DNA of 64,000 bases from Carcharhinus amblyrhynchos. Taxonomy: Eukaryota. Positions within the stretch are counted from its first letter, which is position 1. The number at the start of each line of letters is the position of its first letter. The stretch is from contig OZ336878.1 of NCBI GenBank assembly GCA_965287045.1, positions 101,370,001-101,434,000 of the forward strand, given 5' to 3'. The notes under the pieces are model-generated. The model did not search any database and was not told where the DNA came from. It saw nothing but the letters and a program-made list of their open reading frames with translations. The position numbers were made by a program, and so were the translations under genes. Shown here piece by piece: positions 1-63,559 of the stretch.

Positions 1-730
1 GGAGGGTAAGGGATGTTTGTATTGTTGCTCGTCTCACGTGAACAAATTGAAGGCAAGGTTTAGGGATCCTTATCAGATCGAAAATAAACATGACAACCTA
101 AAATATGTGGTGAATACTCCATATTGGAGAAAGAGTCAGCGAGTGTGCTATATCAACATGCTCAAGTGGTAAATTAACAGGCGGGATGAACAGGAGCAGG
201 TGTGAGTAAAGGAAGAGAAAACAGGGGGTATAATGTGCAATCCTTACACATGACTCTAGAGCCACAGCAATGTATTAGATTATGCATGACAGATTAAAGA
301 TTGTACTGATGACACCTGTTTTAACAATACCTGATTCAATGAACACATTCTAAAATGGCTGTTGGTACTAGTAATGTTGGTATTGTTTTGTTGCAGGAAG
401 ATAAAATGGGCATTGAGAAATCATTCGGATATTTTTCACAGGACGTAACAGTACACCAGAAGAAACATTCAACTGTGGAAAAGGAGACATTCAGCTTTTG
501 AAGTCTGTATTGCAAACAACTCAGAGATGATTACCTAAAATGAGAACAGTTCTTTGAAGTTTCTGTGGACCTTTTGGGATACAAATGTATGACTCTTCCA
601 GTGGAGATTGTAAATGCAAACATTCAACTTGAAAATGATCCATGTAACTGAATGGGAGATATCATTACAGATGTGTTGTCAAGAATTTAAATTCAAAGGA
701 CTTGGATGTGGCTAACTGAAAAATTAACTA
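1..730 (+). mobile_element. Degenerate Gypsy (Gmr1-like) LTR retrotransposon remnant: integrase C-terminus joined to RT-connection/RNase H
   Basis: Broken frames resembling ARFRDPYQI..VCYINMLKW (integrase C-term) and TPVL..VGIVLLQED..FGYFSQ..HQKKHSTVEKET (RNase H). Paralogous to 23027-23760. Confidence 0.6.
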
Positions 731-948
731 GAACTAACTTCATTCTTACTAAAGACTTCTGCACATTATCATGACTCATGCAAGCACATTATAATCTAAT
801 AGTTTTTGCATAGCTAAGTATAGTATGTAACAAGAAATAGGTAAATAAAATGAATACGTATTTAAAATATGACATTTCGTTCTTTTTCTAGGATAAATGT
901 ATTTTTTTTAATTTCTTGCGATTGTGTTCCATGCCTAAAAAAGCAAAT

Positions 949-992
949 TGTGTGTGTGTGTGTGTGCGTGTGTGTGTGTGTGTGAGAGAGAG
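949..992. repeat. (TG)n(AG)n microsatellite
   Basis: Directly visible. The paralogous microsatellite is at about 23941-23978. Confidence 0.9.
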
Positions 993-3199
993 AAAAGCAT
1001 TAGTCGATGGGGTGGAGTAACAAAAAAGATTGCCTGTGTGTTGTATGAGATGAAAGGTTAAGGTGTTAGAATTGTGCATTTGTAATGACAGGTTATGTTG
1101 TGTTTTAAGTACAAGTGAATAGGCTAGTTTGAAATTTGCATTGAGAGACAAGTGGTTAAACTGATTTTGGATTGGTAAATTCAAACAGGGAAATGCAGAA
1201 GTGTTGAGGAATATATGCATTCAACAGGAGTCCCATGAGTAAACAATACATGGTATATTCAATTTTAGTGACTTGAAAGTAGAGACAAATCAGAGAACGT
1301 GATGTTGAGTTTGAAGGTGTGTTTAACAATGGAATCTGAGATGAAAGGGAGAAAATTATTTAAGAAAAAGGATGATTAACTGAGTCGAGTTGCTGTCTGG
1401 GAAAGTCCTGGAGAACAATCCATTTGTGTTGGAAGTTGAGATGCTGTGAAGGTTTTGAATTGGTGGCTGATTCTCCATGTTAAACACACAGGGTGTTTGC
1501 TTTGGGAAACTTTTTGTTTAAACTGTCTTATTTGAGTGTGCATCTCACTTTATGATAAAAACATCTCCTATACGATGATCAAATAGTAATCCAGGTTTCA
1601 GGAGTTAAGAATTTCTTTTTCCTTCTGACTCACTCAGGGAAACACATTGAAACTAACAACAGCCTTTATAGCTGCATCGACACAATTTCATTTCACAAAC
1701 ATACATTTGGGTTTGGCCACAGAGTTTGCCTGAACATCTACTCCCCAGGGCATGAGCATTCTGCTGCCAATGGAGATTTCCAAGAGTTTATGGAACCTGA
1801 TTGAGATGCTTTCATGTAAACGCTGTGGGTTGTTGTTTAGATCACATTAAGCCGAATCCTGATCGTTCTAACTAATTTGAGGAGAGAGTCTAATGTTGAT
1901 ACAGGTTAGTAATACATTAGGAGAACACATTTGATGCATTGGCGTCAAATTGAGCTGCGTGGCTGTGCATCATTCGACGATCGGGGGAACAGATCCGCAG
2001 ATCTAAGTTGAATAGTACACTTACTATAAATCTGTTTTGGAAAATAATTGGTGTGTTTATGTAATTAGTCCTCAGAGGCAGGAGTTCTTTCACCATAATC
2101 TCTTTATTTTCAAGTCTGACAGCGGCATACAGAGTGCTTTCAGTTAGCAGTTCAACATCAGGAGTCCCAGAGGAACTGACACTCCTGGTCAAATACAAAG
2201 CAGGGGGCTTCCTGGCTGGCCCATCAGTTCAGCCCTAAATCAGGAAGCACATATTCTTAACAAGCCAACCTCAATTGTCTGGTTAGAGCTGTTACAGTTT
2301 ATATCTAATCAATTCAGGAAAAATAATAAAAATGGTGATGGATGTTATCCACTCAGGAAGCACTGTCTGTAAGCAGTTGGAGCCTCTTCATTTCTCTCAC
2401 TAAAGCCATGTCTTTGACTAATATTCACCTAACCACAGTTAAATACAAAATTGTTTCTGCTGTACCAATTGTGGGGACGGACTTGGAGTGTGCTTCCGCT
2501 GGGAGGGCAAATCAAAACTTATTCTGTTTGCATTAATCCATTCCATATCCTGGATATCTAATTTAACTATTCTCGCCCTTGCCCTGTCCATATATGACTC
2601 AATAGCGGCTACACTGCTTCACTTATATTGTTATTGCGTTGTAAACGAGAATATTTCTCATCAGTCATACCGACGCTATGTCTTGTGGCCCTCAATTTTG
2701 GGAGAATCATTTTTCCTGCTCACTCATTAGTAAATTTTAAGATTCAGCACATCCTTCATTTATAATACAAACCCATTTGAAATAATTGAATTGTCTTTCC
2801 AATATTACACACTATAGATACCCACTTCATTCCTTCATGGAGTGTCACACCACAATTAGTTTCCCATCCACAAGTGCCCTTCAACTGAATGGCTCGCTAT
2901 GATGTTTCCAAGGGCAGTTTCAAGTCAAAAACTTGAAACTGCCCTTGGAAACATCATGTCTGCCTGGCCTAGCCAACATTGCTCATTACTCGTAAAATAA
3001 TAAAAATCAATTAGCTGATCTAGATTTCCCACCCAGCGACATGACCACTGTTGCTCCCCTCTGACCACCACTACCACTAACCCATCGATCTGAACCTTAT
3101 TCTGATACAATGAAAACATTAAGTTCATGCATTTTAAACGTCTATTAAGAGAGTTGTCATCACTATGATGTATAAAGTGTTGATAAAATTCGGGTGTGT

Positions 3200-4564
3200 T
3201 TATCTTATGGAACCAATGTTCTTGTATTGACACATGAGAAGATGCTTGAAGGTTTTCTTAAAGGTCGGATTACAGAGCGCATAGCAAGCGGGGTTGACAG
3301 TGCTATTGATGTAACAGAGCCAATATCCAATAGTCCAGACTGTGTCAGGGACACTGCTTGGACTTATGGTGTAAATGAGCACCATGACAAAGTATGGGCT
3401 CAAAGTGATGATAAATGCCAAGAGAAGAGCCAGGACAGTCCTAGTTACCTTCTTCTCCCGGGACAGGGCTCCCTTACTCTTCTCAAAAGCTGTGCTGGTA
3501 ATCGAAATGATCTTCTCTGCGCTACTTTCGCTGTCATGCCCATTCTTGCTGATGACATCTGCGACTGTTCTGATTGTGGTGGCACTATCAGCACCATTTT
3601 CAGATTTGCCTATAGCTTTTATGGAAGAGAGTTTGGGGTTGTCCATTCTTAAATGGCTTGATGGGACCACACTGGGGTGAGGTAATTTACCAGGAGACGG
3701 CGTCGCCACCTGGCCATCCTTACTAGTTAATATTTCTCCAGTTATTTTGACATTTTGCTGTTTGTCATGTGACAAAAAAATAGTACCATCTAATGTGTTG
3801 TTTTGGTTCGGCTCCATTGTGCTGCCGTTCACTAGAGAGGGTGAAATGGTGCCCTTGCTGGATCCCGGCACCTTTTTATTCCCTTTGATTCGACTTTTGC
3901 TGGCTCGAGCTATTTCCACAGAGAGAACAATTATAATGAGTGCAGGGGCATAGAAAGTAGCTACAGCAGTGCCAAAGATGATGGCTGGATTGGAGAGGAA
4001 CTGTACATAACACTCGCTCTCACTAACTGTCCGTTCGCCTACGGTGAACTGCCAGAAGAGAATAAGAGGAACCCAGATCGTAAATGGTACCACCCAAATT
4101 GCTGCAATCATCATCCCCGCCACCTTCACTGTTCTCTTCACGGGGAAGCTCAGGGGCCTAGTCACACAGAAATAGCGATCAAAGCTGATGACTAGAAGGT
4201 TCGCGCAAGAGACATTGCTGACAAAATAATCCAGAGCGAGCCATAAGTCACATACCACTGGGCCCAATGGCCAGTAGCCCATTACAATGTAAGTGGTGTA
4301 TAGGTTCATAGAGAACACACCAATAAACAAATCAGCGCAGGCCAAGCTGAAAAGGAAGTAATTGTTAATAGTTTGTAAATGTCTGTTTAGTTTGATAGAA
4401 ACAATGACCAAAATGTTTCCAATAATTGTCACCAAGCTTAACGCAGCTGTCACAGTCACAATAAGGACCACTTCAAACGTTTTGTAAGGACTCGCTCTTT
4501 CAGCGTCAAACAATCCTGTTGGGTTGCTGAGAAATGAATTGACTGCCGTTGAGTTTGCCATCAT
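3200..4564 (-). CDS. CHRM2: Muscarinic acetylcholine receptor M2-like GPCR, paralog A (454 aa, single coding exon)
   Basis: Intact ORF with M2 hallmarks [60 protein letters not shown] and [13 protein letters not shown]. True start is ATGATG at 4564 (the track's 4594 is TTG). Preceded by a polypyrimidine tract with AG acceptors. A divergent paralog, not necessarily the CHRM2 ortholog. Confidence 0.93.
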
Positions 4565-4771
4565 TTGCTTCTGATGTGTAGGTAGCACTGACAAGGCTAA
4601 AGTACAGAAAATAAGAGAAAAAAATTGGGAATCATTTCACAGTGAATAGTCAACCAGCAACTCACTGACTTTCAACCAGCAAAACTATCTATTCTTACAA
4701 ACTTCAATACTTTTAGCAGAAAGGACTCGGTTTTAATTAGGAATCATCTCAAAGGTTGTCCAATGTACACT

Positions 4772-5012
4772 TACATAAGAACATAAGAAATAGGAGCAGG
4801 AGTAGGCCATCTAGCCCCTCAAGCCGGCTCTGCCATTCAATAAGATCAGGGCTGATGTGATAGTGGTTCAGTTCCGCTTATCCACCTGCTCCCCTTATTG
4901 GTCAAAATTCCCTTAATTCCCTTATTGGTCAAAAATCTATTTGTCTGTGACTTAAACACGTTCCAAAGATTCATTACCCTCTGGGAGAAGAAGTTCCTCC
5001 TCAACTCTGTTC
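4772..5012 (-). mobile_element. CR1 LINE 3' fragment
   Basis: cataagaacataagaaataggagcaggagtaggccat is the reverse complement of the CR1 3' tail. Absent from the paralogous site in unit B (about 27670). Confidence 0.75.
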
Positions 5013-6506
5013 TATCGTTATATTATTCTATTTAATTATAAGCTTATCCTTAATTATTTGTATGGAACTGAACACAGATGATGATGAGTGACTTTTCAAA
5101 TACATCTCTCAAGGTTCATAGCTTCATCGCTCCAGAATAACTCGATTAAACATCTTTGAAAACTTAAATGTTCTGCATTTCCCCCGAGAGGGAGAGAGGA
5201 ATCTGAACCTGAGTCACTTCATGTCGAAGTCATGTGTTTAAATGCAGAAATTCATGGGTTTTTAAGAATAAAGGCTTAAAACAAATTTTAATTTCTCTAA
5301 TTTTGACAGCCATTTAATTTGAAACTTGTATGAGGATTGTGCTGAGTATGTATATATATATATATATAATATGTGAGGATAACTTTTAAAGCAGAAATTT
5401 GAAGGCAAAAGTAGGAATGCAGTGCATCAGACTCGGTCACCAAATCAGGAAATCCATCACTTGTGCTCATGTGTGTAGATGATAACTTCCTCTGGTTTAA
5501 CTCCTGTGCCTTTACTCAGCTATTCCAATTCACCTTTAATTATCCTGAATTTGTCCCTCAATCTCACTCATTTGTTTATCCTTTATGTAGATATTTAATT
5601 TCTCATATTGCCAACATGTCCTGAATATTGAATCATTTGATCTGTGTGCTGCGTTTATGGTAGCTAATAAACTTACCTCGTCATTGACTCAAGAGAAGCT
5701 GTTTAAATTGACTCCGACTAAAAAGTAAATATATTTAGATTGTGAAAATGTATCTTGGGAACTGGATTATTAATAAGATGTGGCCTAGAAAAGGGGTGGG
5801 GCTATGTGGGAGAGCGGATTCAATAAATAAGGGCAGCCAGAAAACTCCACCTCACCTGAAGGCATAACAAAATCGAGCACAGTCCAGGAAGTTAACAAAT
5901 TAGGGGATCTCATCTGCGACCAATTATAACAAAGTGCACTCAAAAATTTCAAGTATTAGCTTTGTAAACCTTCTCTACACCCTCTCTGATGCCTTTATAT
6001 CACTTTTTTATAACATGGCCACCAGCTCTGCTTATAATAGTGTGCAACGTTGTGCACTGAACTCTTAAATATATGTGTGGTCTAAACATGTTTGTTGCAG
6101 ATTAAAAATAACTTCTCTACTTTTCAAATCTATCCCTCTACGAATAAACCCTTGTGTTTGCTTTGCCATGTTTTTATCGCAAGGCAAGCAGGAGGCCACA
6201 GTGTATCTTTTAGTGATTGACGTATTTGGAGCAAAACATCAATTTCTGCATCAATCCTAAGCGGCTTGAAATTTCCAAGTAACGTGAGCTCGCTATTTCG
6301 CTAACGAAATGTTCCACTGCACACTTCTTTCTGTCAGGCTTCATTTTTCCCACTATTTGCCGCTCTGAAAATTTAACAATATCCTTCTAAAATCTTTTGC
6401 AGTCTTCCCAACCATGACACCAAATGCCTACCCAATCTACCCACAAAAGTTGATTGCACATGGAATGGGTTGGACAATGATCTTGGAAATTCTTCAGTTC
6501 TTTTCA

Positions 6507-7404
6507 TTATTTAATCAATTTAACAAGTTGAGTAAATGGATATTTGACCACATTCACCAACTGCTCTTTGAACTCAGTTTGACTAACAGCATAAATAAAA
6601 GGGTTTTTACGGCAATTCAGGAGCTGCAGCATGAATGCTATTATGCCAATAAATGTCAGCAAAAATCCAGATTCATACCCTCTGAACCACATTCCAGGCC
6701 ATGTGTAATACGTTGCATACACTAACTATAAGAGGATGCAATCTGCAGAAATGTAAAACAGTAAAATAATACATTTTCTTTGACTCTCCCCCTGTGACAT
6801 GCTGGGACTCTTGCCAGTGCTGTGATGCTCGAGTCTCCTACAGACTCTACTGGCCAAGAAAACATGTCTGAGAGTGAAATCATTGAGTAGCAGAATGAGA
6901 ACAAGTGGGACAACCGGAGTGAGAATGTAGTAGAGGAGCAGAAGTGTTGACCAGACTGGTGAGTCCAAAATGTTTCTTGGCACAAAACAAAAGGGGTCAT
7001 TCCACAGCTGAAATCTATCTGAAAATATAAAATACCATGTGGTCTCTTTCAAACCATTCAGTAAAGTCACTGTTCCCAGAGCCAGCACTGCAGTTTTCTC
7101 AGGGCAATATTTCCTTCCCAGCTTCTGGCAACAAATGGCGACAAATCGATCAAAGATTAAAATGATGGTGAACCAGATGGAACAGTCTGTGGCTGCATAA
7201 AGCAGGGCACCATATTACACTTTGGGATGGAGTACACAAAAAGTAATTCTTGCTGATGAACAAACGGAATGCGCCTCATCATCAGATCGGTAATAATTAT
7301 AATAACCAGTAGATTTGCTGCTGCCATGGCCACCAGGTAGCGGATCACAAAATTGGAGAGCCCACACCTCTCCCAGAAGAGGATCATAATGGTCACCACA
7401 TTAA
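6507..7404 (-). pseudogene. GPR139: GPR139-like GPCR exon 2, unit A (disabled)
   Basis: Colinear with the intact copy at 30100-31007. Acceptor cacAG|TTAAT at 7405/7404. Net 4-nt deletion near 7212 (frameshift) and TGG>TAG nonsense at 6726-6728. Confidence 0.88.
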
Positions 7405-7520
7405 CTGTGAGGAGGAGACATGAACAAGGACATCTTCCATCAGATTGAAAGCACAGTCACCAGTTTCATTGAGTATTTCCTGACATATGGAAACATTTGT
7501 AGTTTCTTTAATGATATGTT

Positions 7521-7925
7521 AGTGTCTGGCCTCAGAGAGGTCTATATGATCTCATAGAGGTCTGTAAAATAATGAGCAGGCATAGATCAGGTAGTTAGTC
7601 GATGTAATCTCCCAAAGGTAGAGGAGTCTAAAATTAGAGGGCATAGGTTTGAGGTGAAGCGGGAGAGATACAAAAGGGTCCAGAGGGGCATTTGTTTTCT
7701 CACAGAGGGTGGTGAGTGTCTGGAACAAGCTATCAGGGGTAGGAGTCAAGTAGGGTATAATGTTGTCTTTTAAAAAGCTTTCGATAATTACATGGGCAAG
7801 TTGGATAAAGAGGGATGTGGACCAAACACAGGCAATTGGAAATAGCTTAGTGGTTAACTAAAGGGGTGGCATGGACAAGTTGGGCCGAAGTGCCTGTTCC
7901 CATGCTGTAAATCCCTATGACTCTA
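7521..7925 (+). mobile_element. CR1 LINE 3' fragment inserted in the GPR139-like intron
   Basis: CR1 ORF2 end (agagggcataggtttgaggtg..ttctcacagagggtggtgagtgtctggaac) and ctatgactct tail, flanked by atgtt. Empty site in unit B at about 31120. Confidence 0.85.
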
Positions 7926-9419
7926 AATGTTGAATTGGTTCTACTCTGTTCCATTTCACGCTACTACCGACTTACTTCTTTGCTACGTTTGTGAAAGGCG
8001 GAAGCGTTCACACAAGATCAATTGGGAAAAACCTGAACATATTAAGAATAAAAGCTGAACAAAATGTGACCTGTCCTGATCACAGAACCTCTGCATGCTG
8101 CTCACGCTGAGGAAACTGCTGCATGTGCAGACAATCTGCTCCAAGTGTACGTGGGAATTCTATCCCATGCTGTGCGCACCTTGTCCTTCATAAATACAGC
8201 ATTCATAAAGACAACATTCCTTGGTCATGATGTTGTATTTCAGTCTGTGAATGTGATTTAAGGGCACCCTACTGGAAACAGTAAGCAAATGCTGGCACTT
8301 TGTATCTTTGCTGACAGGTTTCCTGCCTCTGCACAGTGAGCTCAGTTCATGCATTGAAAAAGCAGATGACAACTTGTTGATTAAATAAGACAGTAGACAC
8401 GAAAGATCATCAGATCAACCTCTGGCACCAAGAGGCTCAAAAGGAAAGATTGCGTCCTCAGAACATTGTTGAATGATAATGAGTCTCTGTAACTTGCACC
8501 TACCAAGAACAAAGGCATTTGCCTGCGACACAGGTTTCATATGAGGTGGGTGGGTGGGGAGGCCAAATAAAGCTGCCCTTTCTCGCAAATCAAACAAATA
8601 AGGGCCATTGATGTTGCTGTTTGCACTAGATGGACAATGGCCATATTACTATTGCCCTGTGATCCGGAGAGGTAGCCCATGCCTAGATAATAGCGGGTAG
8701 CCGAATCTCCTATTCAGGGATACTGACAAAAAGACCTGCAATCTCTTAACATGAATGATGATTAGTGAGAATTTCTGGTTGGCAATCAATGGAAATGATC
8801 ATAGCAGTTATAAGCAGGGTTTTACCGCCAAGAAGTCATGTTCTTGCAGAAGATCACACGCAGCAATGGCAAGATTTTACCTTTATAGAATGAACGTGTT
8901 CACCATCAGAAAAGGTACAACAAGCGATCTGATGAAACCCTTGCCAATGTTCAGATGCTGCATTCGCATCATCTCTAACTGATGGAAGGATGCCAGCTCG
9001 AAACAAACAGTGAACTGTACAATGACAGTGTTACCTGTTAAAAGCAGTGACTGTCATTGAATGAAAGCAATCATTCAATGAATTTCATATTTCCATTGCA
9101 ATATCACATGGAGAGAAACAGTTTGTAAAGGCCAGGTAAAAGCTGCTGCAGATCTAACCCTTTCCTTGTTCTGGTGAAAGTAGGTGAGTTTGCTGCAAAT
9201 ATGAAGTTGACAAGAAATGTTTACAGTAAAGGACAGGGCAACCTGATAGAAATTTGTCCATGAGGTTTGCTGAGAGATTCGTCCGCAGTTTATAATTCAA
9301 TAAAGTCCAAACAGCAATTCGACAGGAGAGTTTTGGAATCACTGCAATCCATCAACTTACTTTCTCACACATTTCAATGCTTCTTCAAACAAAAAAACCA
9401 CTTAGCAAAAAAAAAACCA

Positions 9420-9640
9420 CTGGGGATGCTCTAATCTGAAACAAATTCATAAAATGCTGGATAATCTCAGCAGGTCTGTCAGCATCTGGGCAGAGAGAGA
9501 GAGAATAGACTTAAAATTTCAAGTCCACATCACTGGAACTGTGAAGTGGGGTCACACAGACTCGAAAAGTTAAATATTAACGAAATATTTATCTCCCCAC
9601 AAATGCTACCAGTCCTGCTGAGCTTTCATCCAGCATAATC
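9420..9640. mobile_element. Short inverted-repeat element (Penelope-derived/MITE-like) in the GPR139-like intron
   Basis: aaatgctggataatctcagcaggtctg...ctaccagtcctgctgagc inverted arms. Copies sit at the same position in the other units (about 32540-32720 and 49445-49630). Confidence 0.55.
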
Positions 9641-10016
9641 AGAAATGCTACAGAAAGTGAAACATCTGAAAGCACAGATATCAGATTGTAAGCTGGACTG
9701 CGGGACATGGATTCTGAGCCATCGGCACAAACCATGTCAACATTTATTTATGTTCTAACAGAATCTGATTTCAGATTTCTATTCTGTATTAGAGATGAAG
9801 GATATGTTGAAAGTGACAGATACGCCATTCTTTAAGTTCAGAATGAAGCGAATATTGTGTAATAATAAAATCAAACCAAATGAAAACAACATCAAGAGCA
9901 AAACGCAAGAATTGCACTGAACCTACCTCAGAGCTGAATCTACTGATAAACAGGATGAGAAGATTAATGTAGTGGAACATGGAATATAGAATTAATAGCT
10001 AGATATTGGGACTTAC

Positions 10017-10098
10017 CAGGGATGCCAATGTCACCAATGAGTGGATAGAAAATCTTTTCTATCCCAAGGATGAAGAAGGTTATCTTCTGCTGGTCCAT
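10017..10098 (-). pseudogene. GPR139: GPR139-like exon 1, unit A (MDQQKITFFILGIEKIFYPLIGDIGIP, phase-1 donor)
   Basis: 82-nt ATG-initiated exon ending CCTG|GTAAGT. Splices in frame (G+TT=Val) to exon 2 at 7404 and completes TM1 (YP...GIP-VN). Confidence 0.8.
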
Positions 10099-10177
10099 TT
10101 CTATAGAGCCACTGATCCTTGTTACCATTAGATGTGAAACTCCCCCTGATATGAAGAGATAAAACACATTGGAAGCA

Positions 10178-10194
10178 GGCCTTTATGAATAGAA
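10178..10194 (-). promoter_or_regulatory. Conserved TATA-like motif upstream of GPR139-like exon 1
   Basis: The 16-mer TTCTATTCATAAAGGC (minus strand) is identical in all three units (10179, 33275, 50198), about 80-95 nt upstream of the ATG. Confidence 0.45.
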
Positions 10195-10539
10195 GGGTGA
10201 GATCTCCAGAGACTCAAAGGGGATCCATGGAGACTAATATTAATCATAGTCACTGAACAAACAAATTCATTGAATTCCTTCCAATCTGACACTTAGTGGC
10301 AGTGCATTTGTTTGACAATGTTTGAAATGTGTTCCAGTGTCAAAGGACAAATAAAAGCACACACCTTGTGGCTAAATCTATTACTGCTGCAGCCTTGTGT
10401 CCTGTGTGTTGATGGTATGAAGCTCGATGGTCAGCTGTAGGTAGTCATGGTCTATTTTCAAAATGTTTAAAATAGCACTGGAGTTTGTGATAAGATTAAT
10501 ACATATCTAAAAGAGAAAGTTGATTAAAATAGTCAGGAT

Positions 10540-12305
10540 ATGGAGATGCCAGCATTGGAGTGTGGGTGGGCACAGTAAGAAGTCTCACAACACCAGGTTC
10601 AAGTCCAACAGGGTTATTTGGTATCAGGAGCTTTTGGAGTGCTGCTCCTTCATCAGGTGAATGGAGAATAGGTTCACAAACACGGTATATATAGGCAAAA
10701 ACACAATTGCAAGATAATTACAGATTGGAATGTGAAGAATGTTTGAAATGCAGTCTTTATAGATAATCAAGTCTTTAAATTTAGAGACAGTACGAGTGGA
10801 GATAAGGATAATTACAGGTTGAAGAGGTGTGAATTGTCTCAAACCAGGACAGTTAGTAGGAGCTTGCAAGTCCAGGCCAAATGGTAGGGGTTACGTGTAG
10901 TGTGACATGAACATAAAATCTCAGTTGCAATCATCCTCACACATGTGGAACTTGGCTATCAGTTTCTGCTTGGTTACTCTGTGCTTTCCTGTGCCTTGAA
11001 GGCCGCCTTGGAGAGTGCTTACCCGAATATCAGAGGCTGCATGTCCTTGGCTGTATAATTGTTCCCCGACTGGAAGGGGACACACATGTCTGGTGTTTGT
11101 TGTATGTTTCCGTTCATCCATTGTCCTAGCATCTGCATGTCCTCGTCGATGTACCACACCTTGGGACATTCATTCCTGCAGGATATGAGGTAGACAACAT
11201 TGGCTGAGTTGCATGAGTGTGTACCTTGTACCTGGTGGATGGTGTTCTCATGTGTGATGGTGGTATCCATGTTGATGATTCGACACATCTTGCATAGGTT
11301 GTCATGGCAGGCTTGTGTGGTATCATCCTGAAGGCTGGGTAATTTGCTGCGTACAATGATCTGTTTGTGGTTGGGCGATTGTTTGACGGAAAGTAGTAGG
11401 ATTGGGCTTGGCCTTGGCGAGATGTTTGCCTTCATCGATGACATGTTAAAGGCTCTCAAGAAGATGTCATCGTTTCTCCACTCCGGGGAAGCACTGGGTG
11501 TCAAAAGGTACTCTGTCAGTCATGTCCTGTGTTTGTCCTCTGAAGAGAAGGTATGATTTTTATGCTGTGGCACATCAAAACTGTCGATCGATGAGTTCAG
11601 TGCCATATCCTGTTCTTATGAGTGTTTCTTTCAGCTTCTTTTATATCTGTTGTGTTCGTCTTCGTCTGAGCAGATCCTATATATACAGAGTGCTCGTCCA
11701 GAGGGGATGGCTTCTTTAACGTGTTTAGAAGGGGAACATTGTGAAGTTATCGGTGCGCTTGCAGTACGGTGAAGTCCTTGATGGAGATGAGTGTGTCCAA
11801 GAATGCAACCGATTCTGGACAGTGATCCATGGTGAGTCTGATGGTGGCATGGAACTTGCTGATATCATCATGTAGTAATTTCAATGATTCTTTGCCGTGA
11901 GTCCAAAGGAAGAAAATGTCATCAATGTATCTGGTGTATAGCGACAGTTAAATATCCTGTGCTGTGAAGAGGTCTTGTTCGAATGTGTGCGTGAACATGT
12001 TGGCCTGTTCCGGTTTGAATATTTGTCCCCGTGAGCAGTTTGTGTGTCTGGATGAAGAACTGGTTGTCTAAGGTGAAGATGTTATAGCCCAGGATGAAGT
12101 GGATGCGTTGTAGAATTGTGTGTGGAAATTGGTAGTTGTCAGTGTTGAGTACTGAGGCTGTCCCAGCAATGCCTTCATCGTGGGGGATGCTGGTGTAGAG
12201 TGCCAAGATGTCCATTGTAACGAGGAATGCTCCTGGTTCCACTGGACCCTGGGGGCTGATTTTCAGAAATAAGCCCACAGTGTTGCGACAGAAGCTGGGA
12301 GTTTT
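10540..12305 (-). mobile_element. Penelope-like retroelement (RT plus GIY-YIG endonuclease), 5'-truncated and frameshifted
   Basis: ORF pieces LVTMDILALYTSIPHDEGI, FTLDNQFFIQTH and RYIDDIFFLWTHG (RT), and HSCNSANVVYLISC..WYIDE (GIY-YIG). Terminal repeat with a hammerhead-like motif at about 10626-10660. Confidence 0.88.
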
Positions 12306-13080
12306 TTGTTAACTTTGCAGATAGTATATGAAGTAGGAAAATGTGAAGTTATGCAATTTGTCAGAAAATATATAAGCTGAATATCAAGTAACAAGAAAAA
12401 GATTGGAGAAAGCTGCAGCAAAGAGGGATTTGGATGTACTTGGGCGTAAATCACAAAAAGCTAGCTTGCAAGTTCAGCATATAATAGAGAAATGAAATGG
12501 AAAGTTGGTATTTATGTCCACAGGAATGGAGTATAAAAAGGGAAAGTTTTGTTCCAACTATACAAGACAATGTGATCTGTTTTGGTCTCAGGAATGATAT
12601 AGTGGAGGGAGTCCAGAGGAAGTTCACTCAGTTGATCTCGGGTGCGGAGGGATTTTCTTATGAGCAAAGAATGAGTAGATTGGGCATATACTCACTGAAG
12701 TTCAGAAGAACGAGATGCGATCTTGTTGAGACCCATTGGGTTCTCTGGGGTTTGACAGGGAGGATACTGAGAGATTGTTTACCCTTGTGTGAGAGTCCAG
12801 GACCAGAGGTAATGGAATCAGAGTAAGGGGTTATTCATTTAAGACAGAGGCTAGGAGGAATTTCTCCTCTCGGGGACAGCAAATATGTACATTATTTTTA
12901 CCACAGGAGGCTGTAGAGGTGGGGTCATTAAGTATGTTCTAGGTTGATATGGACAGATTTTTCATTATTGGAATAAGGGTGAGAAAGTGGAGGTGAGGAT
13001 ATCACGCCAGATCAGGAATGATCTCATTGAATGATAGAACAAACACGATAGGCTGAATGGCCTTCTTCTGCTCCAACATG
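12306..13080 (+). mobile_element. CR1 LINE ORF2 3' part
   Basis: EGVQRKFTQLISG..FSYEQRMSRLGIYSLKFRRTRCDLVET motif and CR1 3' UTR. Confidence 0.85.
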
Positions 13081-14583
13081 GTATAGCCCAAGGCAACTCG
13101 CCACCACCTTCTCAAAGGAAATTATGACGGGCAGTAAATGCTGGTGTGGACAACGTCTACTTCCTTTGAATGAGTAAATATGTATTTTTTAAGAGAAATA
13201 AGGCAAGCTCATGAGAGAAAGTTAAATGAAAAGATGTACTAAAAAGCAGAGATGGGGCTGATTAAATGAGAGGACCCTCGTGAGGAGTATAAAACTAGCC
13301 CAAAATAGTCGGTTTGAATCGCCTGATATTCTTCTTAGTATCTACACAAAATATGGCCTCTACAGGTTCAGCTCTGCCTGCCTACCTATCAAAAAGGCAA
13401 TGGCTCTGGAAGTTGCAGATGATTTCCCCCATTAAATGGCTGAGCTATTGTTTTACAGCCGAGCACAAGCAAAATGCAACAAATCGCTGATACTGCCCTG
13501 AAAGCAAATGTTAGAACGGCGGTCGAGAAACAGAACCATGTCCGCTACACAAATGTTCACCCTCTGTGTCACTGGAGTGATTTCACAACTTGCCATACAG
13601 TACAACCCTAGTCCCTTCTGGAGTTAATTGAGAATAACCCCAGTTGAAACACTTTCAAATCTCAGGCACAGAAATCCAGCTTTCACCGGTGCTTAAATAG
13701 ATGTGCAGAATTGCAAAGTCTTCCCCTTAATGGGACACTAAGGCCAGTCGAGCTTCTTGCCTTCCCTCGACAGCCTTTTTCAAATAAATAACGAACAACG
13801 AGCTTGTAATTTTCTAGGATATTATTGGTGTTTGGCTGACAGTTCTTCTGTAATGTCCTCCAACATTGTAAGGAGAGTGGAGTTGTGTTCTTCATTATTG
13901 ACAAAGAATGAGAGAATGTAAACAATTTAAAGTGTACAGCATTGTATTGATGAACTGAACATGCATTCCAATTTCTAGATGGTGAGCATGAATTACTACT
14001 GCCTAATAACCTAAAAAAAGGTTAATAAAGCCTTATGCAAGATTAAAATTTAATTGCGATGGAGAGAGTGAAATCCCACTCATGTTGAAGTAAGGTTATC
14101 TTAATCCTCAAATGAGATTCACGTTTTGTCAAAGTTCTTGTCCTCATACGCTTACAGTGAATATAGGGACTGTATGGTTATTTTTAAAGACAGGTGTGTT
14201 TCTTTTGTGCTGAGGAGGGCATCCCTACTAAGCTTCCATATTTGGTGAAAAGACGGCTTATCATCATTTTTTTAATTCCATGAATTCATGGCTGAACCTG
14301 TCCCACAAAGGCGTGGACTGCTTAATGTTCATATTGGCCATTTGTTCTCTTAGTCATACGCTGGCCTTCTGTGAGAAATTATGACTCGGCCCCCACAGCT
14401 TTTCTGTTTGGTTATGGTTCTCATTATTGCTGCCAGCACTTTCCACTTTTCACACCACTTGCACATCAATTGACATTGTGTCATTGTCTTTTTTTAATTC
14501 TAGATTCTCGATATCGATGGAGTCACGTTGCTGTGACGAGGACTGCACTTTAACTTGTATCTGAGTGATAGCAGGCAATTGCT

Positions 14584-14606
14584 GTATATATATATATATA
14601 TATATA
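14584..14606. repeat. (TA)n microsatellite
   Basis: Directly visible. Confidence 0.9.
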
Positions 14607-15573
14607 GTTTCAGCTAAATGTTTAAAATTCAGCTTTATTCTGCAGGTAATCAGAATGTCTGGGCTAATGCAGCTCAAAGAGCTGCTGGGAGAATAGGGTA
14701 ATTTCTGATTTTAACCATGTCATTTGCACTTCAGAGAGAGCTAATGAATATATGTGTATAGATGGAAATTTCCCCTATGGTCTTGATTAAAGCAATGAAT
14801 GTGGGGGTTTAGCCATGCAGATTCATGTGATGATATTGTTAATTGGAGGAACTACATTGGTAACAGAGAAAAAAGAAACATCTTTTGTCTTCTATCTGGG
14901 GCTGGGGAGACAGATATCTATAAACTGCTCTGAATCTCAAAATCGCTCTCTGAAAGCTTTGAGGCAGCATACACTCATTAAAGCAAGTATATTTATGGTT
15001 GCTAACTCTATTTCAAGAGTCTATAAGACTATAAGAGTCTATAAGACAGTATTGCTCATTTAGAACTGAACCATTGTAAGCTAGAAATTTGAGTTGTTTC
15101 CTTTCATTTTTAACTGTTGTTCAGTTTTTTTAAATAATCAAGCTGTTTCCTTTGTTCGTTATAATCAAAACTATCTTCTCAAATAAAGTTGGTTTTACAA
15201 TGAAACATTTTAATTTGTCAGTGGAATGCTCCTGGAGTGACCAATCCTATCCTTACAATTGTGCCACAAAATGTTGGTCTCTAATCTGACCTCATGATTA
15301 CCTTGGACTTCTGGTCTGGAACTTTAACACAAACTATTTTTTTGATTTTTGTTGTAAAAAATAATGATATTTTATATGAGTCGACGCAGAAATAACTCTT
15401 CTATCTTCATATTCTGGGTACCATGTTCAGATTTGTTTACGTCTATCTTTTCTTTATCTCTGCCTGTTTCTGTTGTCATTCAGCTGAAGGAAATATGAGG
15501 ATAAACAGTGGTTCATGGATTAGAAACACTGGAAGTTGTCTATGTTTGCCTTCCTTCATTCAGTAACTCTTTT

Positions 15574-16457
15574 CTAAGCTGTTACATTATTAATTAATTG
15601 AACAATTGGTGTAACTGAATATTTCACTATCATCATAAGCTCCTGTCTGAACTTGGACTGAGTCACCCTGTTAAAAAAAATGTTTCTGCAGCAATTTAAT
15701 TTTAACAGCAATACTTTGACTTCATCAAAACTGTATCAAGAGTTTTTGTAATTCTTGGGATTTTTTTCCTGTAACATTGTAATATGTGAAATGTATAACA
15801 TGTAAAAGCCATGGAATTGTGAAGCTGCCAGATATGGTGACGTGTAAAATACAGACTTCCTCCTGTTGTCCATCTCTGCGTTTCTATGATCATCCCTTTT
15901 GCTCTGAGCCCTCAGTCTTTGATGGACTTGACTGTTTACTAAAATGCATCTGACTGTATGAATGCTGAGCAACAGAATAATTGCATATGGGACATTGGTG
16001 TTAAATCTTACACCCCAAGGTCTGCATAAAATCTTAATTTTTCATTGCAGAACCAGGGGACTTAATGAACGATTCCTCTACCTTCCAATCCAAAGTAAAA
16101 TGTCATGCTTTTAAACAGAGAAAAATGCCACATGATGCAATAACAGCTGCAGTTTTCTCGGTGCAATAATTCATTTTCAACTTCTGGCAATAAAAGGATA
16201 AGAATCGATCAAAAGAGAAAGTGACAGTGAGCCAGAAAGAGCAGTCTGGTGCTGCGAAAAGCAGGACAGTGAGGACGCTACACACTGAGGTAATTTTCAG
16301 AAACAATTGCAGGAAATAATAAAAACTGATCCTGAAGAGTATGACATTAACAATAATGACCAGAAAATCAGCTGTTGCCATGCCCGTCAGGCAGCAAGTA
16401 GTGCAGGCGGAGAGGTCACATTTTCAGACTGACAGGATCACAATTGCCAGTAAAGAA
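15574..16457 (-). pseudogene. GPR139: Divergent GPR139-like GPCR pseudogene (exon 2 only, different subfamily)
   Basis: LAIVILSV*KCDLS..MATADFLVII, DCSFWLTVTFSFDRF..CQKLKMNYCTEKTAAV, EMDNRRKSV, LNCCRNIFF..VTQSKFRQEL. Multiple stops and frameshifts, degraded acceptor. Confidence 0.82.
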
Positions 16458-16629
16458 CGCAAAAGAGGCTATAACTTGTTGATCAAAAATTCTCTGCTGC
16501 CGCTGGATTGAAGTCAGGTAATGCGAATACATTTTACAAAATAGCCTTAACAGCCTATGCCCAACATAGACCCATCTACTTTAGAGTTAAGCAGAGACAG
16601 GACAATGGGCGCTGAGTAACTGATCCTGA

Positions 16630-17180
16630 CTAATAAGGCTATGAGACGCAGGAGGCTAAGGAAATTCGGCATGCCCACTACGACTGTCACCAACTTTTAA
16701 GATACACCGTAGAGACCATCCTTTCTGATTGGCTCGCCGCTTGGCTCCTGCTCTGTCCAAGGTAGCAAGAATCTACAAAGGTCGTGAATGAAGCCCAGTC
16801 CATCACGCAAGCCAACCTCCCACCTAGTAACTCCTTCTATATTTCCGGCTGCCTTGGAAAAGCAGCCAGCGTAATCAAGGACCCCACGTACCACGGACAT
16901 ACTCTCTTCCACCATTTTCAGTCGGGAAAACGATGCAAATGTACGAAAAACTCAAGAACAGCTTTTTCCCTGCTGCCATCAGAATTTGCATGGACCTACC
17001 TTATGTTAAGATGATATTTCTCTGCACCATATCTGTGGCTGTAACACTACATTCTGCACTGTCTCCTTTCCTTCTCTTTAAACGGTATGCTTCGTCTGTC
17101 TAGCGTGCAAGAAACAGTACTTTTCACTGTATACTAATACATGTGACAAGAATAAATCAAATCAGATCAAATCAAATCAT
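16630..17180 (+). mobile_element. Rex1/Babar-type LINE 3' end
   Basis: RRLRKFGMP..TNF..TVETILS-like frame, ending in an aataaa(tcaaa)n tail. Confidence 0.7.
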
Positions 17181-18149
17181 CCGGCAGCCTTTGAATTTCA
17201 CCTGTTTCACAGATATAGTGCAATGTAACAGCTGAAGTGAGGGTGACAATAGGTTTGCGGAAAAGAAAAGTGCTTTCAGTGCACTGTCCTTTGAATCGCA
17301 TGCCCTTATCTTCCGTCTTATTTAACATCCACTGTACATTCTCCAACAGCATCCTATACAAGCATACCAAGTACAACGCTGCCCTTTCGCCACTTCCCTT
17401 CCCATTGTCTGCAGACCCAAGCACTCCTTCCAGAAGCAACGGTTTACCGGTACATCTTCCAATTCTGGCACAGCTTTTACTGCTCACAAAATAGTGTCCT
17501 CTATATTGGAGATGCTGAGTGAAAAATAACAAGGCCATTACAATTGCAAATTAAGGAGAGTGATTACTATCCAGAGCAGTAGAGTAATATCTAATATCAG
17601 AAGACAAATTGTACTTTTTGCAGAACATTGATAATATTACACCTATCGCATTGATCTCCATAGTACAAGAAGATATTAAGGAATTCAAGATGGTTGAACA
17701 TATTTTACAATGATGATATCAGTATATGCCAGATTATGACTAGCTGGGAGGGAGGAACAGGTTGGGCATCTTTTCCTTCGTAAAAGGAAATCTGAGGCTG
17801 TAAATTCGATTGCGTTAGAGCGTGAACATCGAGACGATGGTTCCAGTTCGTGAGGTCTCTAAAATGAAAAACAATCCGTTTAATCGCTAATGAGCCCAAA
17901 TCAGAACTCAGGAGAAATATCTCTAATCAGAGAGATTGAATGTGGAACTCAGTATAACGCGGAGCAAGTGTGATGACTACAACACATTTATTTGAATCCA
18001 TGAGGTACAAAGCAGCAGAATGCCACAGAAGGACCACATTGGAACAATTAAATAAATGGAAGATGAAAGCGACCTAGTCATGAGAAAAGCGCTCGTTGTA
18101 AGGGGCAGACGGAAGCGCACCGTTACACTAAAGAAGAACATGTTTAATG

Positions 18150-19200
18150 CAGAAGTAAATGGAAAAATGTAACACGTTATAATTGCAACAAAGTTGCATA
18201 CACGAAGTCGAATCGCTGGAAGTTTGTTGGGAGTCTGATTGCACTGAAAAGTTCTAAACCAAAGGTGAACGGAAAAAGTTGGGACATAGGAGGTGGAATT
18301 GTTGGAAGCTAAATGGGAGCTCGGTTGCACTGAAATGTTCTAAAACAAAGGTGAAGGGCAGATGATGATATGTTATCATTGCAACAAGATTATTGAATTA
18401 TTGGAAGTTAAACGGGACACAGGTTGCACATAAAAAACCTAAGAGTTCTGTAAATGTGCTTTGGCCTCTGTCTCAAGAGAGGACAAGTGCAGAGCGTTCG
18501 TACAGGTTCACAGCGAACAATTCGAATTAGCTAGAGAGATGGATAGAGAGATTAATCTACACCGGAAAATTCGGCGGACAGGCTACATAGATGTTCAAAA
18601 TTTTCATATCTGTGGGGAAATTGTATAACTCTTGTGTTTCTGGACAAGAAACACAATCTGTCGACATTTTGAGAGGTACGGTTAGCAGTTACAAATATAG
18701 TGTGCTAGTGCCATCTGTTGTCCAGAAGGGTTATTGCAGGTTGATGTTCCGTTTCTCCACAGATTCAATTTGAAACTTAATTTGAAAACTGGGGAGGCAA
18801 ATACTGGTGTGATAGAGAAATTGTCCATTACAGGAGTTCAAATCATTTTTGGAAATGATACAGTTACATCTTAAACATTGACCACACGTACAGAAGTAGA
18901 AAGACCAATTGAAATACAATCAATGAATGTGATACAACAGGAGCATCCAGGCTGTGTGGTGACAAGACACCAAATAATACAGGGTAGATCCAAAAACACA
19001 GGAGGCAGATGCCAAACCTCAGGTGGCTGGGGCTATTTTTAATACCATTCCTCAGGAGGAGAAAGTTAGAGGAAATGTGGCTGAGGTGCTTAGCCCATCG
19101 AATGTAGTGGAATTATAGCATAATGACCAGAATGCAAACACTTATACAAGCAAGCTGTGATAGAGTGTCATTTTTTTCCCTCCCAAAGCATCAGAAAGAA
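18150..19200 (+). mobile_element. Gmr1-like Gypsy gag/protease remnant
   Basis: Degenerate zinc knuckle (YNCNKVAYTKSNRWK) and VDILRGT protease-like motif. Similar to 56330-57100. Confidence 0.5.
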
Positions 19201-26089: not shown

Positions 26090-27451
26090 TTATCTTATGG
26101 AACCAATGATCTTGTATTGACACATGAGAAGATGCTTGAAGGTCTTCTTGAAGGTTGGATTACACAACGCGTAGCAAGCGGGGTTGACGGTGCTGTTGAT
26201 ATAACAGAGCCAGTATCCAATAGTCCAGACAGTGTAGGGGACACAGTTTGGATTAACAGTGTAAATGAGCACCATGACAAAGTATGGGCTCAAGGTGATG
26301 ACAAATGCCAGGAGAATAGCCAGGACAGTCCTAGTCACCTTCTTCTCTCGGGACGCAGCTCCCTTCCTCTTCTCAGCAGCTGTGCTCATAATTGTATTAG
26401 TTGTATTGTCTGCTCTGATGTCCCTGTCATTCCCATTCTTGCTGCTGACATCTGGCACAATCCTGGTTGTGGTGCCACATTCGGCACCCTTTTCTAATTT
26501 GCTAACTACATTTATGGAAGAGAATTTGGGGTTATCTATGCTGAAACCATTTGATGGGTTCACGCTGGTGCCAGCTGATTGACCATGAAGCCACTTCACT
26601 TCTTTATTACTAGTTAATAAATCTCCAGTTATATTGGCATTGTGCAGTTTGCCATGTGACAAACAATTGGTACCATCTGATTTGTTGTTATTGTTCGGCT
26701 CCATTGTGTTGTCTTGCCCTATAGATGGTGAAATGCTGCCCTTACTAGATTCGGGTTCCTTTTTATTCTCTTTCATTCGACTTTTGCTGGCACGAACTAA
26801 TTCCACGGACTGGATTACCATGATGAGAACATAAAGATAGAAGGTAGCGACGGCAGTGACAAAAATGATGGCTGGATTTGAGAGGAACTGTACATAACAC
26901 TCGCCCTCACTAACTGTCCGCTCTCCTACAATGAACTGCCAAAAGAGGATGGGAGGAACCCAGATCATAAATGGCACCACCCAAATAGCTACGATCATCA
27001 TCCCTGCCACCTTCGCTGTTCTCTTCACAGGGTAGGTTAGGGGCCTGGTCACACACAAATAACGGTCAAAGCTGATGACTAGAAGGTTTGTTGAAGAAAC
27101 ATTACTGACAAAATAATCCAGAGCGAGCCATAAGTCACATACCACTGGGCCCAATGGCCAGTAGCCCATGACAATGTAAGTGGTGTACAGGTTCATTGAG
27201 AATATGCCAATAATCATATCAGCGCAGGCCAAGCTGAAAAGAAAGTAATTGTTAATAGTTTGTAAATGTCTGTTTAGTTTGATAGAAACAATGACCAAAA
27301 TGTTTCCAATAATTGTCACCAAACTTAAAGCAACTGTCACAGTCAGAATGAGGACTACTTCGAACGTTTTGTAAGAACTCGCTCTTTTGCCGTCAAACAA
27401 TCCTGTTGGGTTGCTGAGCGATGCGTTGACCTCCGTTGGGTTTGCCATCAT
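26090..27451 (-). CDS. CHRM2: Muscarinic acetylcholine receptor M2-like GPCR, paralog B (453 aa)
   Basis: Intact ORF closely similar to paralog A, with DRY and NPACY motifs. Acceptor cttttcAG at 27475, 23 nt upstream of the ATG. Confidence 0.93.
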
Positions 27452-30099: not shown

Positions 30100-31007
30100 T
30101 TACCATTTAATCAATTTAACAAGTTGAGTAAATGGATATTTGAACATATTCATCAACTGCTCTCTAAACTCGTTTTGAGTCACAGCATAGATAAAAGGGT
30201 TTGTACAGCAACTCAGGAGCTGCAGCATGAATCCTATTTCCTCAACAAATTGAGGTAACAGTCCAGATTCATATCCTATGAACAGTGATATAGCCCATGT
30301 GTAATACACTGCATACATTGCCCATAAGAGGATGAAATTTGCAGAGATGACAAACAGTAAAACAATAGATTTTCTTTGACTTTCCATCTCTGGGACACTG
30401 GGACTCTCACCACCGTTGCGACCCTGGATTCTTCTACGGGCTATATTTGACAATAAAATGTGTCTAATGCTGAAAACATTGAGCAGCACAATCAGAGCAA
30501 ATGGAACACCCGGGGTGAGAATGTAGTGAAGGATTACAATTGTTAACCAGAATGGTGAGTCCAAAATGTTCCTTGGCACAGAACAAAACCAGGTGGCGTT
30601 CCACAGCCGATACCTATCTGAAAATATAAAATACCACGCAATCGCTTTCAAACCACTCAGTGAAGTCACTGTTCCCAAAGCCAGCGCTGCAGTTTTCTTG
30701 GTGCAATATTTCCTTTTCAGCTTCTGGCAACAAATGGCCACAAATCGATCAAAGATGAAAGTGATGGTGAACCAGACAGAACAGTCTATGGCTGCATAAA
30801 GCAGGGCACTGTGGATATTACACTTGGGGATGGAGTACACAAAAAGCAACTCTTGTTGATCAATAACTGGAATGTGCCTCATCATCAGGTCGGTAATAAT
30901 TATAATAACCAGTAGATCTGCTGCTGCCATGGCCACCAGATAGCAGGTCACACAATTGGAGAGCCCACACCTCCCCCGGAAGAGGATCACAATTGTCACT
31001 ACGTTAA
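30100..31007 (-). CDS. GPR139: GPR139-like GPCR, exon 2 (intact; 329 aa with exon 1)
   Basis: Open frame VNVVTIVILFRGRCGLS..LVAMAAADLL..DCSVWFTITFIFDRF..YCTKKTA..RKSIVLLFVIS..LQLLSCCTNPFIYAVTQ. Acceptor cacAG at 31008. 908 nt plus the 82-nt exon 1 gives 990 nt. Confidence 0.9.
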
Positions 31008-61570: not shown

Positions 61571-61605
<35 letters not shown>

Positions 61606-63545: not shown

Positions 63546-63559
63546 GTGTATCATCAGTG

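What the first reader, a model, noticed from the sequence alone, without database searches (positions are those of the whole stretch)
3389..3403. All intact M2-like paralogs have lost the muscarinic TM6 signature (W6.48>L/F, N6.52>F) but keep the ammonium cage
Seen: canonical TWAPYN reads TLSPYF (A 3389-3403; B 26279-26293) and TFTPYF (C 43336-43350). Also T5.39>I, A5.46>T/T/S and N6.58>Y. D3.32, Y3.33, W4.57, Y6.51, Y7.39, C7.42 and Y7.43 are retained. Known: N6.52 is muscarinic-specific and hydrogen-bonds ligands such as QNB and atropine; F6.52 is typical of adrenergic and serotonin receptors; A5.46 is one of the two DREADD positions that remove ACh response. Inference: these bind a cationic amine but probably not acetylcholine or atropine in the normal way. 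Methylamines abundant in elasmobranchs (TMA, TMAO, choline, betaine) or trace amines are candidates.
Basis: partly seen in the sequence, partly recalled or inferred. Interest (0 to 1): 0.82.

Follow-up and report, generated by a model that had tools for sequence, protein, structure and literature searches.

The report
Shark acetylcholine-receptor array with rebuilt pocket
This shark carries, besides its normal M2 acetylcholine receptor gene, a separate array of 11 intact copies, and the three in this window keep the part of the pocket that grips a charged amine but have swapped the part that triggers signalling, so they likely resist atropine and likely answer acetylcholine only weakly.

Summary
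The residues are real: three intact M2-like genes (A, B, C) carry W6.48L/L/F and N6.52F and keep D3.32 and the tyrosine lid. They belong to an array of 11 intact CHRM2 duplicates on another contig than the true CHRM2 and CHRM4, which are canonical. 'All' holds only in the window: genome-wide W6.48 is kept in 7 of 11 copies and N6.52F is in 8 of 11. The clade is shared with houndshark and catsharks, under purifying but relaxed selection (omega 0.41 against 0.21), with no site test for omega above 1. N6.52 has been replaced by four residues (F, V, S, H) in shark and ray duplicates, never in 81 other M2 sequences. Published mutants and the tick type-B receptor (N6.52H, still acetylcholine-driven, atropine-insensitive) show that losing N6.52 need not end acetylcholine binding. 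Best reading: retuned, antagonist-resistant, low-efficacy cholinergic receptors (0.42); a new amine ligand is the close rival (0.30). TMAO and betaine have no support. No ligand or expression data exist here.

The parts
3200..4564 (-). Paralog A, intact single-exon M2-like ORF, 454 aa; C3.40, I5.39, T5.46, S5.58, L6.48, F6.52, Y6.58
3389..3403 (-). A TM6 LSPYF: L6.48 codon TTG 3401-3403, F6.52 codon TTT 3389-3391
3920..3922 (-).
3371..3373 (-). A Y6.58; same position and residue as the constitutively active M3 mutant N514Y (numbering equivalence recalled)
26090..27451 (-). Paralog B, intact ORF, 453 aa; L6.48 26291-26293, F6.52 26279-26281, S5.58 26807-26809, P5.50Y 26831-26833 (Y5.50 shared with houndshark and catshark orthologues)
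43147..44451 (-). Paralog C, intact ORF, 434 aa; F6.48 43348-43350, F6.52 43336-43338, S5.58 43813-43815, T5.42/S5.43/S5.46, T3.37, G3.40
51223..51998 (+). Broken M2-like copy (stops, frameshift, no TM6-7 match), opposite strand
1..18874 (.). Part of a roughly 25 kb tandem unit (M2-like gene plus GPR139-like genes) present three times at 96-98% identity; the other two units lie left of the window
30100..31059 (-). GPR139-like class A GPCR, open frame of 319 codons (ATG ORF 276 aa), between B and C
6522..7324 (-). Frameshifted GPR139-like copy beside A
15592..16378 (-). Second, more distant broken GPR139-like copy

Best explanation
A, B and C are members of an old shark array of CHRM2 duplicates that keep the ammonium-gripping half of the pocket and most of the signalling core but have replaced the ester-side trigger, so they likely still bind acetylcholine, likely respond to it weakly, and are predicted to be insensitive to atropine and NMS. 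Shown: a DNA-level copy of CHRM2 (5' and 3' flanks included) lies on another contig and has multiplied in tandem; one branch fixed F6.52 and S5.58 and nearly fixed L/F6.48, T/S5.46, Y6.58 and a small 3.40. Inferred: D3.32 with Y3.33, Y6.51 and Y7.39 still cages a trimethylammonium head; F6.52 cannot make the water-bridged hydrogen bond to the acetyl group that pulls TM6; L/F6.48 and S5.58 further weaken the relay; small 3.40 would raise agonist affinity and Y6.58 would raise basal activity, partly offsetting this. The result would be Gi/o-type receptors with a shifted dose range, a vertebrate analogue of arthropod type-B muscarinic receptors, while canonical CHRM2 keeps the ancestral job.
For: Origin: array flanks align colinearly with CHRM2 flanks (64-82% identity) and not with CHRM4 flanks beyond scattered repeat-like hits; CHRM2 lies 270 kb from a FAM180 gene, CHRM4 about 23 kb from the only PTN/MK hit. 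Function kept: clade omega 0.41, below 1 at p 6e-14; orthologues intact in Mustelus and two Scyliorhinus species; D2.50, D3.49, R3.50, N7.45, N7.49, Y7.53 unchanged in all 15 clade rows. Cage kept: D3.32, Y3.33 unchanged in 16 of 16, Y6.51 and Y7.39 in 15 of 16. Mutant data read: N404Q binds acetylcholine better and is partially active; W413A pKi 3.47 and log tau 0.66 against wild type 4.51 and 2.96; V120A (3.40) pKi 5.63, log tau 1.47; W400 rotation not needed for acetylcholine activation; N514Y called constitutively active. Natural precedent: tick type B differs at 3.33, 3.36, 5.43, 6.52, keeps acetylcholine, loses atropine block; an orectolobiform shark paralogue has changed the same four positions (H, N, L, V; 5 of 5 sequences). 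Two recent copies of A went back to W6.48 (TTG to TGG inside A-type sequence), so the ancestral residue still fits.
Against: No assay of these proteins exists here. The efficacy losses stack: 6.48 about 200-fold, 3.40 about 30-fold, 6.52 partial, and Y5.58F is recalled to abolish the M2 acetylcholine response (Kruse 2013, not held); together they could leave no acetylcholine signalling. The mutants read are Q or A, not F or L. Subgroup-specific pocket signatures kept across species and the excess of change on the non-cage half fit ligand diversification as well. Type B's residues at 6.48 and 5.58 were not checked. Cage conservation alone is not significant (p 0.12-0.40).
Confidence: 0.42

Rival explanations
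1. New ligand: the array is a repertoire of receptors for cationic amines other than acetylcholine (choline or other trimethylammonium compounds, alkylamines, hydroxylated trace amines), with the hydrogen-bond partner moved from TM6 (N6.52) to new TM5 hydroxyls (5.43, 5.46). It would parallel the rise of TAARs from HTR4.
For: Non-cage pocket sites changed 6.0 times on average against 2.3 for other pan-muscarinic invariant sites (p 0.0007), and separately in rays (p 0.001) and in the rest of the shark array (p 0.004). Each subgroup keeps its own pocket signature across species. F6.52 matches adrenergic and serotonin receptors; C has T5.42/S5.43/S5.46 beside S/S/S of the beta receptor. Precedent in PMC8890504 (passages).
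Against: No positive selection in M1a/M2a or two branch-site tests (p 1.0, 0.66, 0.98). A presence/absence test showed no pocket enrichment in the window clade (5 of 16 against 28 of 147, p 0.32), and the count test is borderline there (p 0.036-0.053). The three-tyrosine lid is kept, unlike in all five aminergic receptors compared, and they keep W6.48 and Y5.58. No basic residue for betaine or TMAO. Type B shows a heavily changed pocket can stay cholinergic.
Confidence: 0.3
2. Relaxed drift: the copies ride along in a duplication-prone region rich in GPR139-like genes, keep only fold-level constraint, and have no distinct ligand function.
For: About 30% of sites fit omega near 1 in the clade; recent branches omega 0.83, not different from 1; at least four broken copies in the array; co-duplication in 25 kb units; 93 of 191 conserved sites vary within the clade.
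Against: Overall omega well below 1; one-to-one intact orthologues across shark families; F6.52 and S5.58 fixed in 16 of 16 over 1.9 substitutions per site of tree while neighbours vary; most microswitches change less than other sites (p 0.001).
Confidence: 0.15
3. Ligand-uncoupled proteins: constitutively active Gi tone-setters (Y6.58) or silent acetylcholine sinks and dimer partners (S5.58, L6.48, P5.50Y in B).
For: Positions 3.40, 6.44, 6.48 and 5.58 lie on the common class A activation path (PMC6954041, passages) and all are changed or variable; relaxed sites cluster in the inner half of TM5; pocket relaxation with kept fold would also give the pattern.
Against: D3.32 and the lid are kept; DRY, NPxxY, D2.50 and the VTRT(V/I)L segment of TM6 are kept; activation-path sites are not over-changed as a class (6 of 41 against 28 of 147).
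Confidence: 0.13

Closest known systems
Vertebrate muscarinic receptor M2 (CHRM2)
   Same: Direct parent: 67% identity of A to this shark's CHRM2, shared flanks, single coding exon, D3.32, tyrosine lid, DRY, NPxxY, TM6 VTRT segment.
   Different: N6.52F, W6.48L/F, Y5.58S, small 3.40, T/S5.46, I5.39, Y6.58, P4.53; not at the CHRM2 locus; one of 11 intact tandem copies, where Pedersen et al. 2018 (no cartilaginous fish in its species list as far as shown) found no duplicates outside genome doublings.
Arthropod type-B muscarinic receptors (tick Ir-mAChR-B)
   Same: Natural loss of N6.52 with D3.32-type amine pocket; works like it if the best reading holds. An orectolobiform paralogue changed the same four positions.
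   Different: Separate lineage (protostome clade); type B has H3.33, C3.36, I5.43, H6.52, while A/B/C keep Y3.33 and S3.36 and change 6.48 and 5.58 as well.
Adrenergic and serotonin receptors
   Same: D3.32, F6.52, Y7.43; TM5 hydroxyls in C.
   Different: They keep W6.48 and Y5.58 and have V/I3.33, F6.51 and N/F/T7.39 instead of the tyrosine lid.
TAAR/TARL expansions from HTR4
   Same: A neurotransmitter receptor duplicated into a tandem family with D3.32 kept.
   Different: TAAR ligands and olfactory expression are shown; here neither is known.
DREADDs (engineered Y3.33C/A5.46G; recalled)
   Same: Position 5.46 is changed; another array subgroup has A5.46G itself (L012, P0088, P0096, P0026).
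   Different: Y3.33 is kept, and A/B/C have T or S.

Membership tests
Muscarinic receptor family, CHRM2 lineage (by descent) | Groups with CHRM2 to the exclusion of CHRM4 and M1/3/5; shares CHRM2 non-coding flanks | tested here: met
   best PDB match M2, E 1e-161
Muscarinic receptor family, CHRM2 lineage (by descent) | CHRM2 synteny (orthologue rather than paralogue) | tested here: not met
   FAM180 neighbour is at L006 on contig C6; the array is on C9. Only this one marker was found.
Canonical mAChR pharmacophore | D3.32 and tyrosine lid Y3.33/Y6.51/Y7.39 | tested here: met
   role from PMC9870890 passages
Canonical mAChR pharmacophore | N6.52 | tested here: not met
   F in A, B, C and 16 of 16 clade members
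Canonical mAChR pharmacophore | W6.48 and Y5.58 switches | tested here: not met
   L/L/F and S/S/S
Canonical mAChR pharmacophore | Activation by acetylcholine and muscarine, block by atropine, Gi/o coupling | not testable with these tools
   Needs expression and assay; TM6 VTRT(V/I)L segment kept
Arthropod type-B mAChR | Membership of the protostome type-B clade | tested here: not met
   Nested among shark CHRM2 duplicates; no type-B sequence was in the tree
Arthropod type-B mAChR | Changes at 3.33, 3.36, 5.43 and 6.52 | tested here: not met
   A and B change 1 of the 4, C 2 of the 4; the orectolobiform paralogue 4 of 4
Monoamine (adrenergic/5-HT) pocket | F6.51-F6.52, aliphatic 3.33, non-tyrosine 7.39, W6.48 | tested here: not met
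   Only F6.52 matches
Chemosensory amine-receptor expansion (TAAR-like role) | Expression in a sensory epithelium | not testable with these tools
   No RNA holder listed; catshark sensory paper does not mention muscarinic genes in its main text, supplement unreadable
Chemosensory amine-receptor expansion (TAAR-like role) | Diversifying selection on pocket sites | tested here: inconclusive
   Pocket-biased change but no omega above 1 and a null presence/absence test

The most novel reading that the evidence does not exclude
Sharks, stingrays and skates have each turned spare copies of the M2 acetylcholine receptor into a repertoire of receptors for other cationic amines, a second vertebrate route from a neurotransmitter receptor to a chemosensory or metabolite-sensing family, reached by repeated replacement of N6.52.
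Probability: 0.27. Interest if true: 0.85.

Novelty: new variant of a known kind. Interest (0 to 1): 0.62.

Why it matters
The muscarinic pocket is a textbook case of invariance, and the one family-wide study seen reports no duplicates outside genome doublings. Elasmobranchs break both rules, several times over. The array is a natural mutational series at the residues that set efficacy and antagonist binding (3.40, 5.43, 5.46, 5.58, 6.44, 6.48, 6.52, 6.58), including a near-identical trio that differs at 6.44 and 6.48, so it makes the roles of these switches directly testable. It would also mean that atropine may not block all cholinergic signalling in sharks, and it may offer atropine-resistant scaffolds for chemogenetic tools.

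Tried and rejected
Expression: no RNA holder listed; four coded runs of unknown kind were laid as contigs and only show related sequence across the gene, with no row at the 6.48 codon among those displayed. No evidence either way. Positive selection: not found (own code, 13 genes of this genome, 276 codons, includes the frameshifted L012 from TM1 on; low power). Pocket enrichment by presence/absence: null. Gene conversion as source of W6.48 in L002/L003: rejected for tracts longer than a few codons, since their nearest neighbours around the codon are each other and A. Retrocopy origin: rejected, flanks shared. Assembly artefact for A, B, C: rejected, orthologues with the same residues in other species; the two recent copies L002/L003 have no independent confirmation. 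AlphaFold model of A: seven helices plus helix 8 but mean pLDDT 49, not used and not searched. PTN as CHRM2 marker: only one PTN/MK gene found, beside CHRM4. Papers not held: Kruse 2013, Collin 2013, Hoffmann 2012, Haga 2012, Haga 2013, Kruse 2014; a search for N410Y found nothing. Earlier findings of the scan: none. Betaine and TMAO as ligands: considered unlikely, no basic residue gained.

Full report
Observation. The window holds three intact minus-strand ORFs of 454, 453 and 434 aa whose best solved-structure match is human M2. The quoted coordinates read LSPYF, LSPYF and FTPYF. It also shows changes not listed: Y5.58S in all three, V3.40C/S/G, S4.53P, F45.55L, P5.50Y in B, N3.37T and A5.43S in C. 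A fourth copy at 51223-51998 is broken and has no TM6-7 match.

The genome. The closest named relatives are from the houndshark Mustelus asterias (87% to A), then catsharks, so the genome is most likely a carcharhiniform shark. Two searches agree on 13 copies with TM6-7 on contig C9 between 99.7 and 101.42 Mb: 11 intact, L012 frameshifted in TM1 and L015/L016 frameshifted in TM5, plus two fragments without TM6-7. The first search scored 93 of 832 candidates and the second 150 of 211, so counts are lower bounds. Two further genes on C6 are canonical at all pocket sites: L006, 270 kb from a FAM180 gene, is CHRM2; L013, about 23 kb from the only PTN/MK hit, is CHRM4 (neighbour relations in other vertebrates recalled). 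M1, M3 and M5-type genes are canonical too. But 'all' is wrong beyond the window: W6.48 is kept in 7 of 11 intact copies and N6.52F is in 8 of 11.

Origin. Array copies share up to about 1.2 kb of upstream and 0.7 kb of downstream sequence with CHRM2, in order: a DNA duplication, not a retrocopy. A lies in a unit of about 25 kb, holding the M2-like gene and GPR139-like genes, present three times at 96-98% identity. The two sister copies L002 and L003 have TGG at 6.48 inside A-type sequence, with F6.44 changed to Y and H; since B, L005 and the Mustelus and catshark members have L, this is a return to W.

Other species. Canonical CHRM2 was seen in 16 of 16 elasmobranch sequences taken as canonical. 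Contig lengths in the listings put it on a different chromosome from the M2-like copies in Mustelus, both catsharks, basking, white and whale sharks. The clade of A, B and C has 16 members in this genome, Mustelus and two catsharks: F6.52 and S5.58 in 16 of 16, 6.48 L12 F2 W2, 6.58 Y15 H1, 5.46 T14 S2. Position 6.52 is F in carcharhiniform and lamniform duplicates, V in orectolobiform, S in stingray and H in skate duplicates, and N in 81 of 81 comparison M2. Parsimony counts 8 changes; shared silent sites suggest F may have arisen once, so four events is the safe count. These sets are cluster representatives at 90% identity from top-120 listings, not full repertoires; fused or partial rows (P0116 in the later tree, P0129, P0135) were left out.

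Selection. With own codon-model code on 13 genes of this genome and 276 core codons, omega is 0.41 in the clade against 0.21 elsewhere (p 8e-6), below 1 (p 6e-14), and 0.11 on the CHRM2 tip. Site and branch-site models find no omega above 1; they place about 30% of sites near neutrality in the clade, many in the inner half of TM5. A presence/absence test found no pocket enrichment (5 of 16 against 28 of 147). Counting changes on a 90-sequence tree built without the trait columns, the ten non-cage pocket sites changed 6.0 times on average against 3.4 for other M2-invariant sites (p 0.02) and 2.3 for other pan-muscarinic invariant sites (p 0.0007); rays alone p 0.001-0.017, the window clade alone p 0.036-0.053; the whole pocket p 0.009-0.13; the five cage sites changed less (1.6) but not significantly. 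The site classes are mine, partly recalled, and were set after I had seen the residue table; gene conversion can inflate counts. I take this as moderate evidence.

What the changes would do. In acetylcholine-bound M2, three tyrosines and D3.32 hold the ammonium head, a water links the ligand to N6.52, and W6.48 stays inactive-like (PMC9870890, passages). N404Q binds acetylcholine 2.2-fold better but signals partially (PMC11987023, abstract, section 5 and passages). In M4, W413A gives pKi 3.47 and log tau 0.66, V120A pKi 5.63 and log tau 1.47, wild type 4.51 and 2.96 (PMC10229135, table passages). M3 N514Y is cited as constitutively active (PMC3841061, passage and reference title); that 514 is 6.58 is recalled. 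That Y5.58F removes the M2 acetylcholine response is recalled from a paper not held. The tick type-B receptor differs at 3.33, 3.36, 5.43 and 6.52, answers acetylcholine at 0.15-0.68 uM and is not blocked by atropine; moving the four residues into type A removes atropine block and keeps the acetylcholine response (PMC13022164, sections 6 and 7). An orectolobiform paralogue has changed exactly these four positions. Against a move toward monoamine receptors, five such receptors of this genome keep W6.48 and Y5.58 and lack the lid, and no basic residue has appeared at pocket level.

Verdict. Shown: the array, its origin, its age relative to shark families, the residues, purifying but relaxed selection. 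Inferred: binding, efficacy, coupling. I commit to retuned, antagonist-resistant, low-efficacy cholinergic receptors (0.42), ahead of a new amine ligand (0.30), drift (0.15) and ligand-uncoupled proteins (0.13). By descent these are CHRM2 paralogues; they fail the canonical pharmacophore at N6.52, W6.48 and Y5.58, so they should not be filed as ordinary M2 receptors.

Novelty. The genes are auto-annotated as 'M2-like' in NCBI for many elasmobranchs. Five searches of the held library listed no paper whose title or abstract start describes the array; only 20 of 137 and 20 of 3,088 hits were listed. The family study found (PMC6298421, passages) reports no duplicates outside genome doublings, and its text has no mention of cartilaginous fish. 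The catshark sensory paper has no main-text mention of muscarinic genes and its supplement could not be read. Subscription journals were not searched. Rated a new variant of a known kind, interest 0.62.

Noticed in passing
window 30100-31059, 6522-7324, 15592-16378; genome-wide: A GPR139-like orphan GPCR family is very large in this genome: 140 of 140 scored candidates matched (3329 candidates), mostly 58-63% identical with open frames, in arrays on many contigs. One search found no paper on it. It is co-duplicated with the M2-like gene.
   Followed up: partly
P0133, P0134, P0137, P0152, P0162: Whale, zebra, bamboo and epaulette shark paralogue has H3.33, N3.36, I5.42, L5.43, V6.52: the four positions that separate tick type-B from type-A receptors.
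   Followed up: partly
L002, L003 (G000:C9:101348148-101349503, 101323801-101325156): Recent copies of A regained W6.48 and changed F6.44 to Y or H; all three differences in this stretch are non-synonymous.
   Followed up: yes
L012 (G000:C9:99727104-99728351), P0088, P0096, P0026: Subgroup with natural A5.46G, F6.44V, and in most members changed 4.57, Y7.39F and C7.42A; frameshifted in this assembly but intact in Mustelus.
   Followed up: partly
L007, L008 and orthologues: Subgroup that keeps W6.48 and N6.52 but has C7.42F.
   Followed up: no
stingray and skate proteins P0017, P0022, P0059, P0065, P0085, P0100, P0098: Separate CHRM2 expansions in batoids with N6.52S plus N3.37Y/S and A5.43G, or W6.48L with N6.52H.
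   Followed up: partly
G000:C6:56024009-56026160: Only one pleiotrophin/midkine-family gene was found in the genome, beside CHRM4; pleiotrophin may be lost or missed.
   Followed up: no
G000:C9:101443320-101443874 and 101478060-101478659: Right of the window: an exon that looks like RNF20/RNF40 and a PRY/SPRY-like exon (recognised from memory, not searched).
   Followed up: no
window 58774-59526; 60546-63720; 50345-50650: LINE-like fragment, low-complexity and tandem repeats giving spurious ORFs, and a run of 306 N just before the broken M2-like copy.
   Followed up: no
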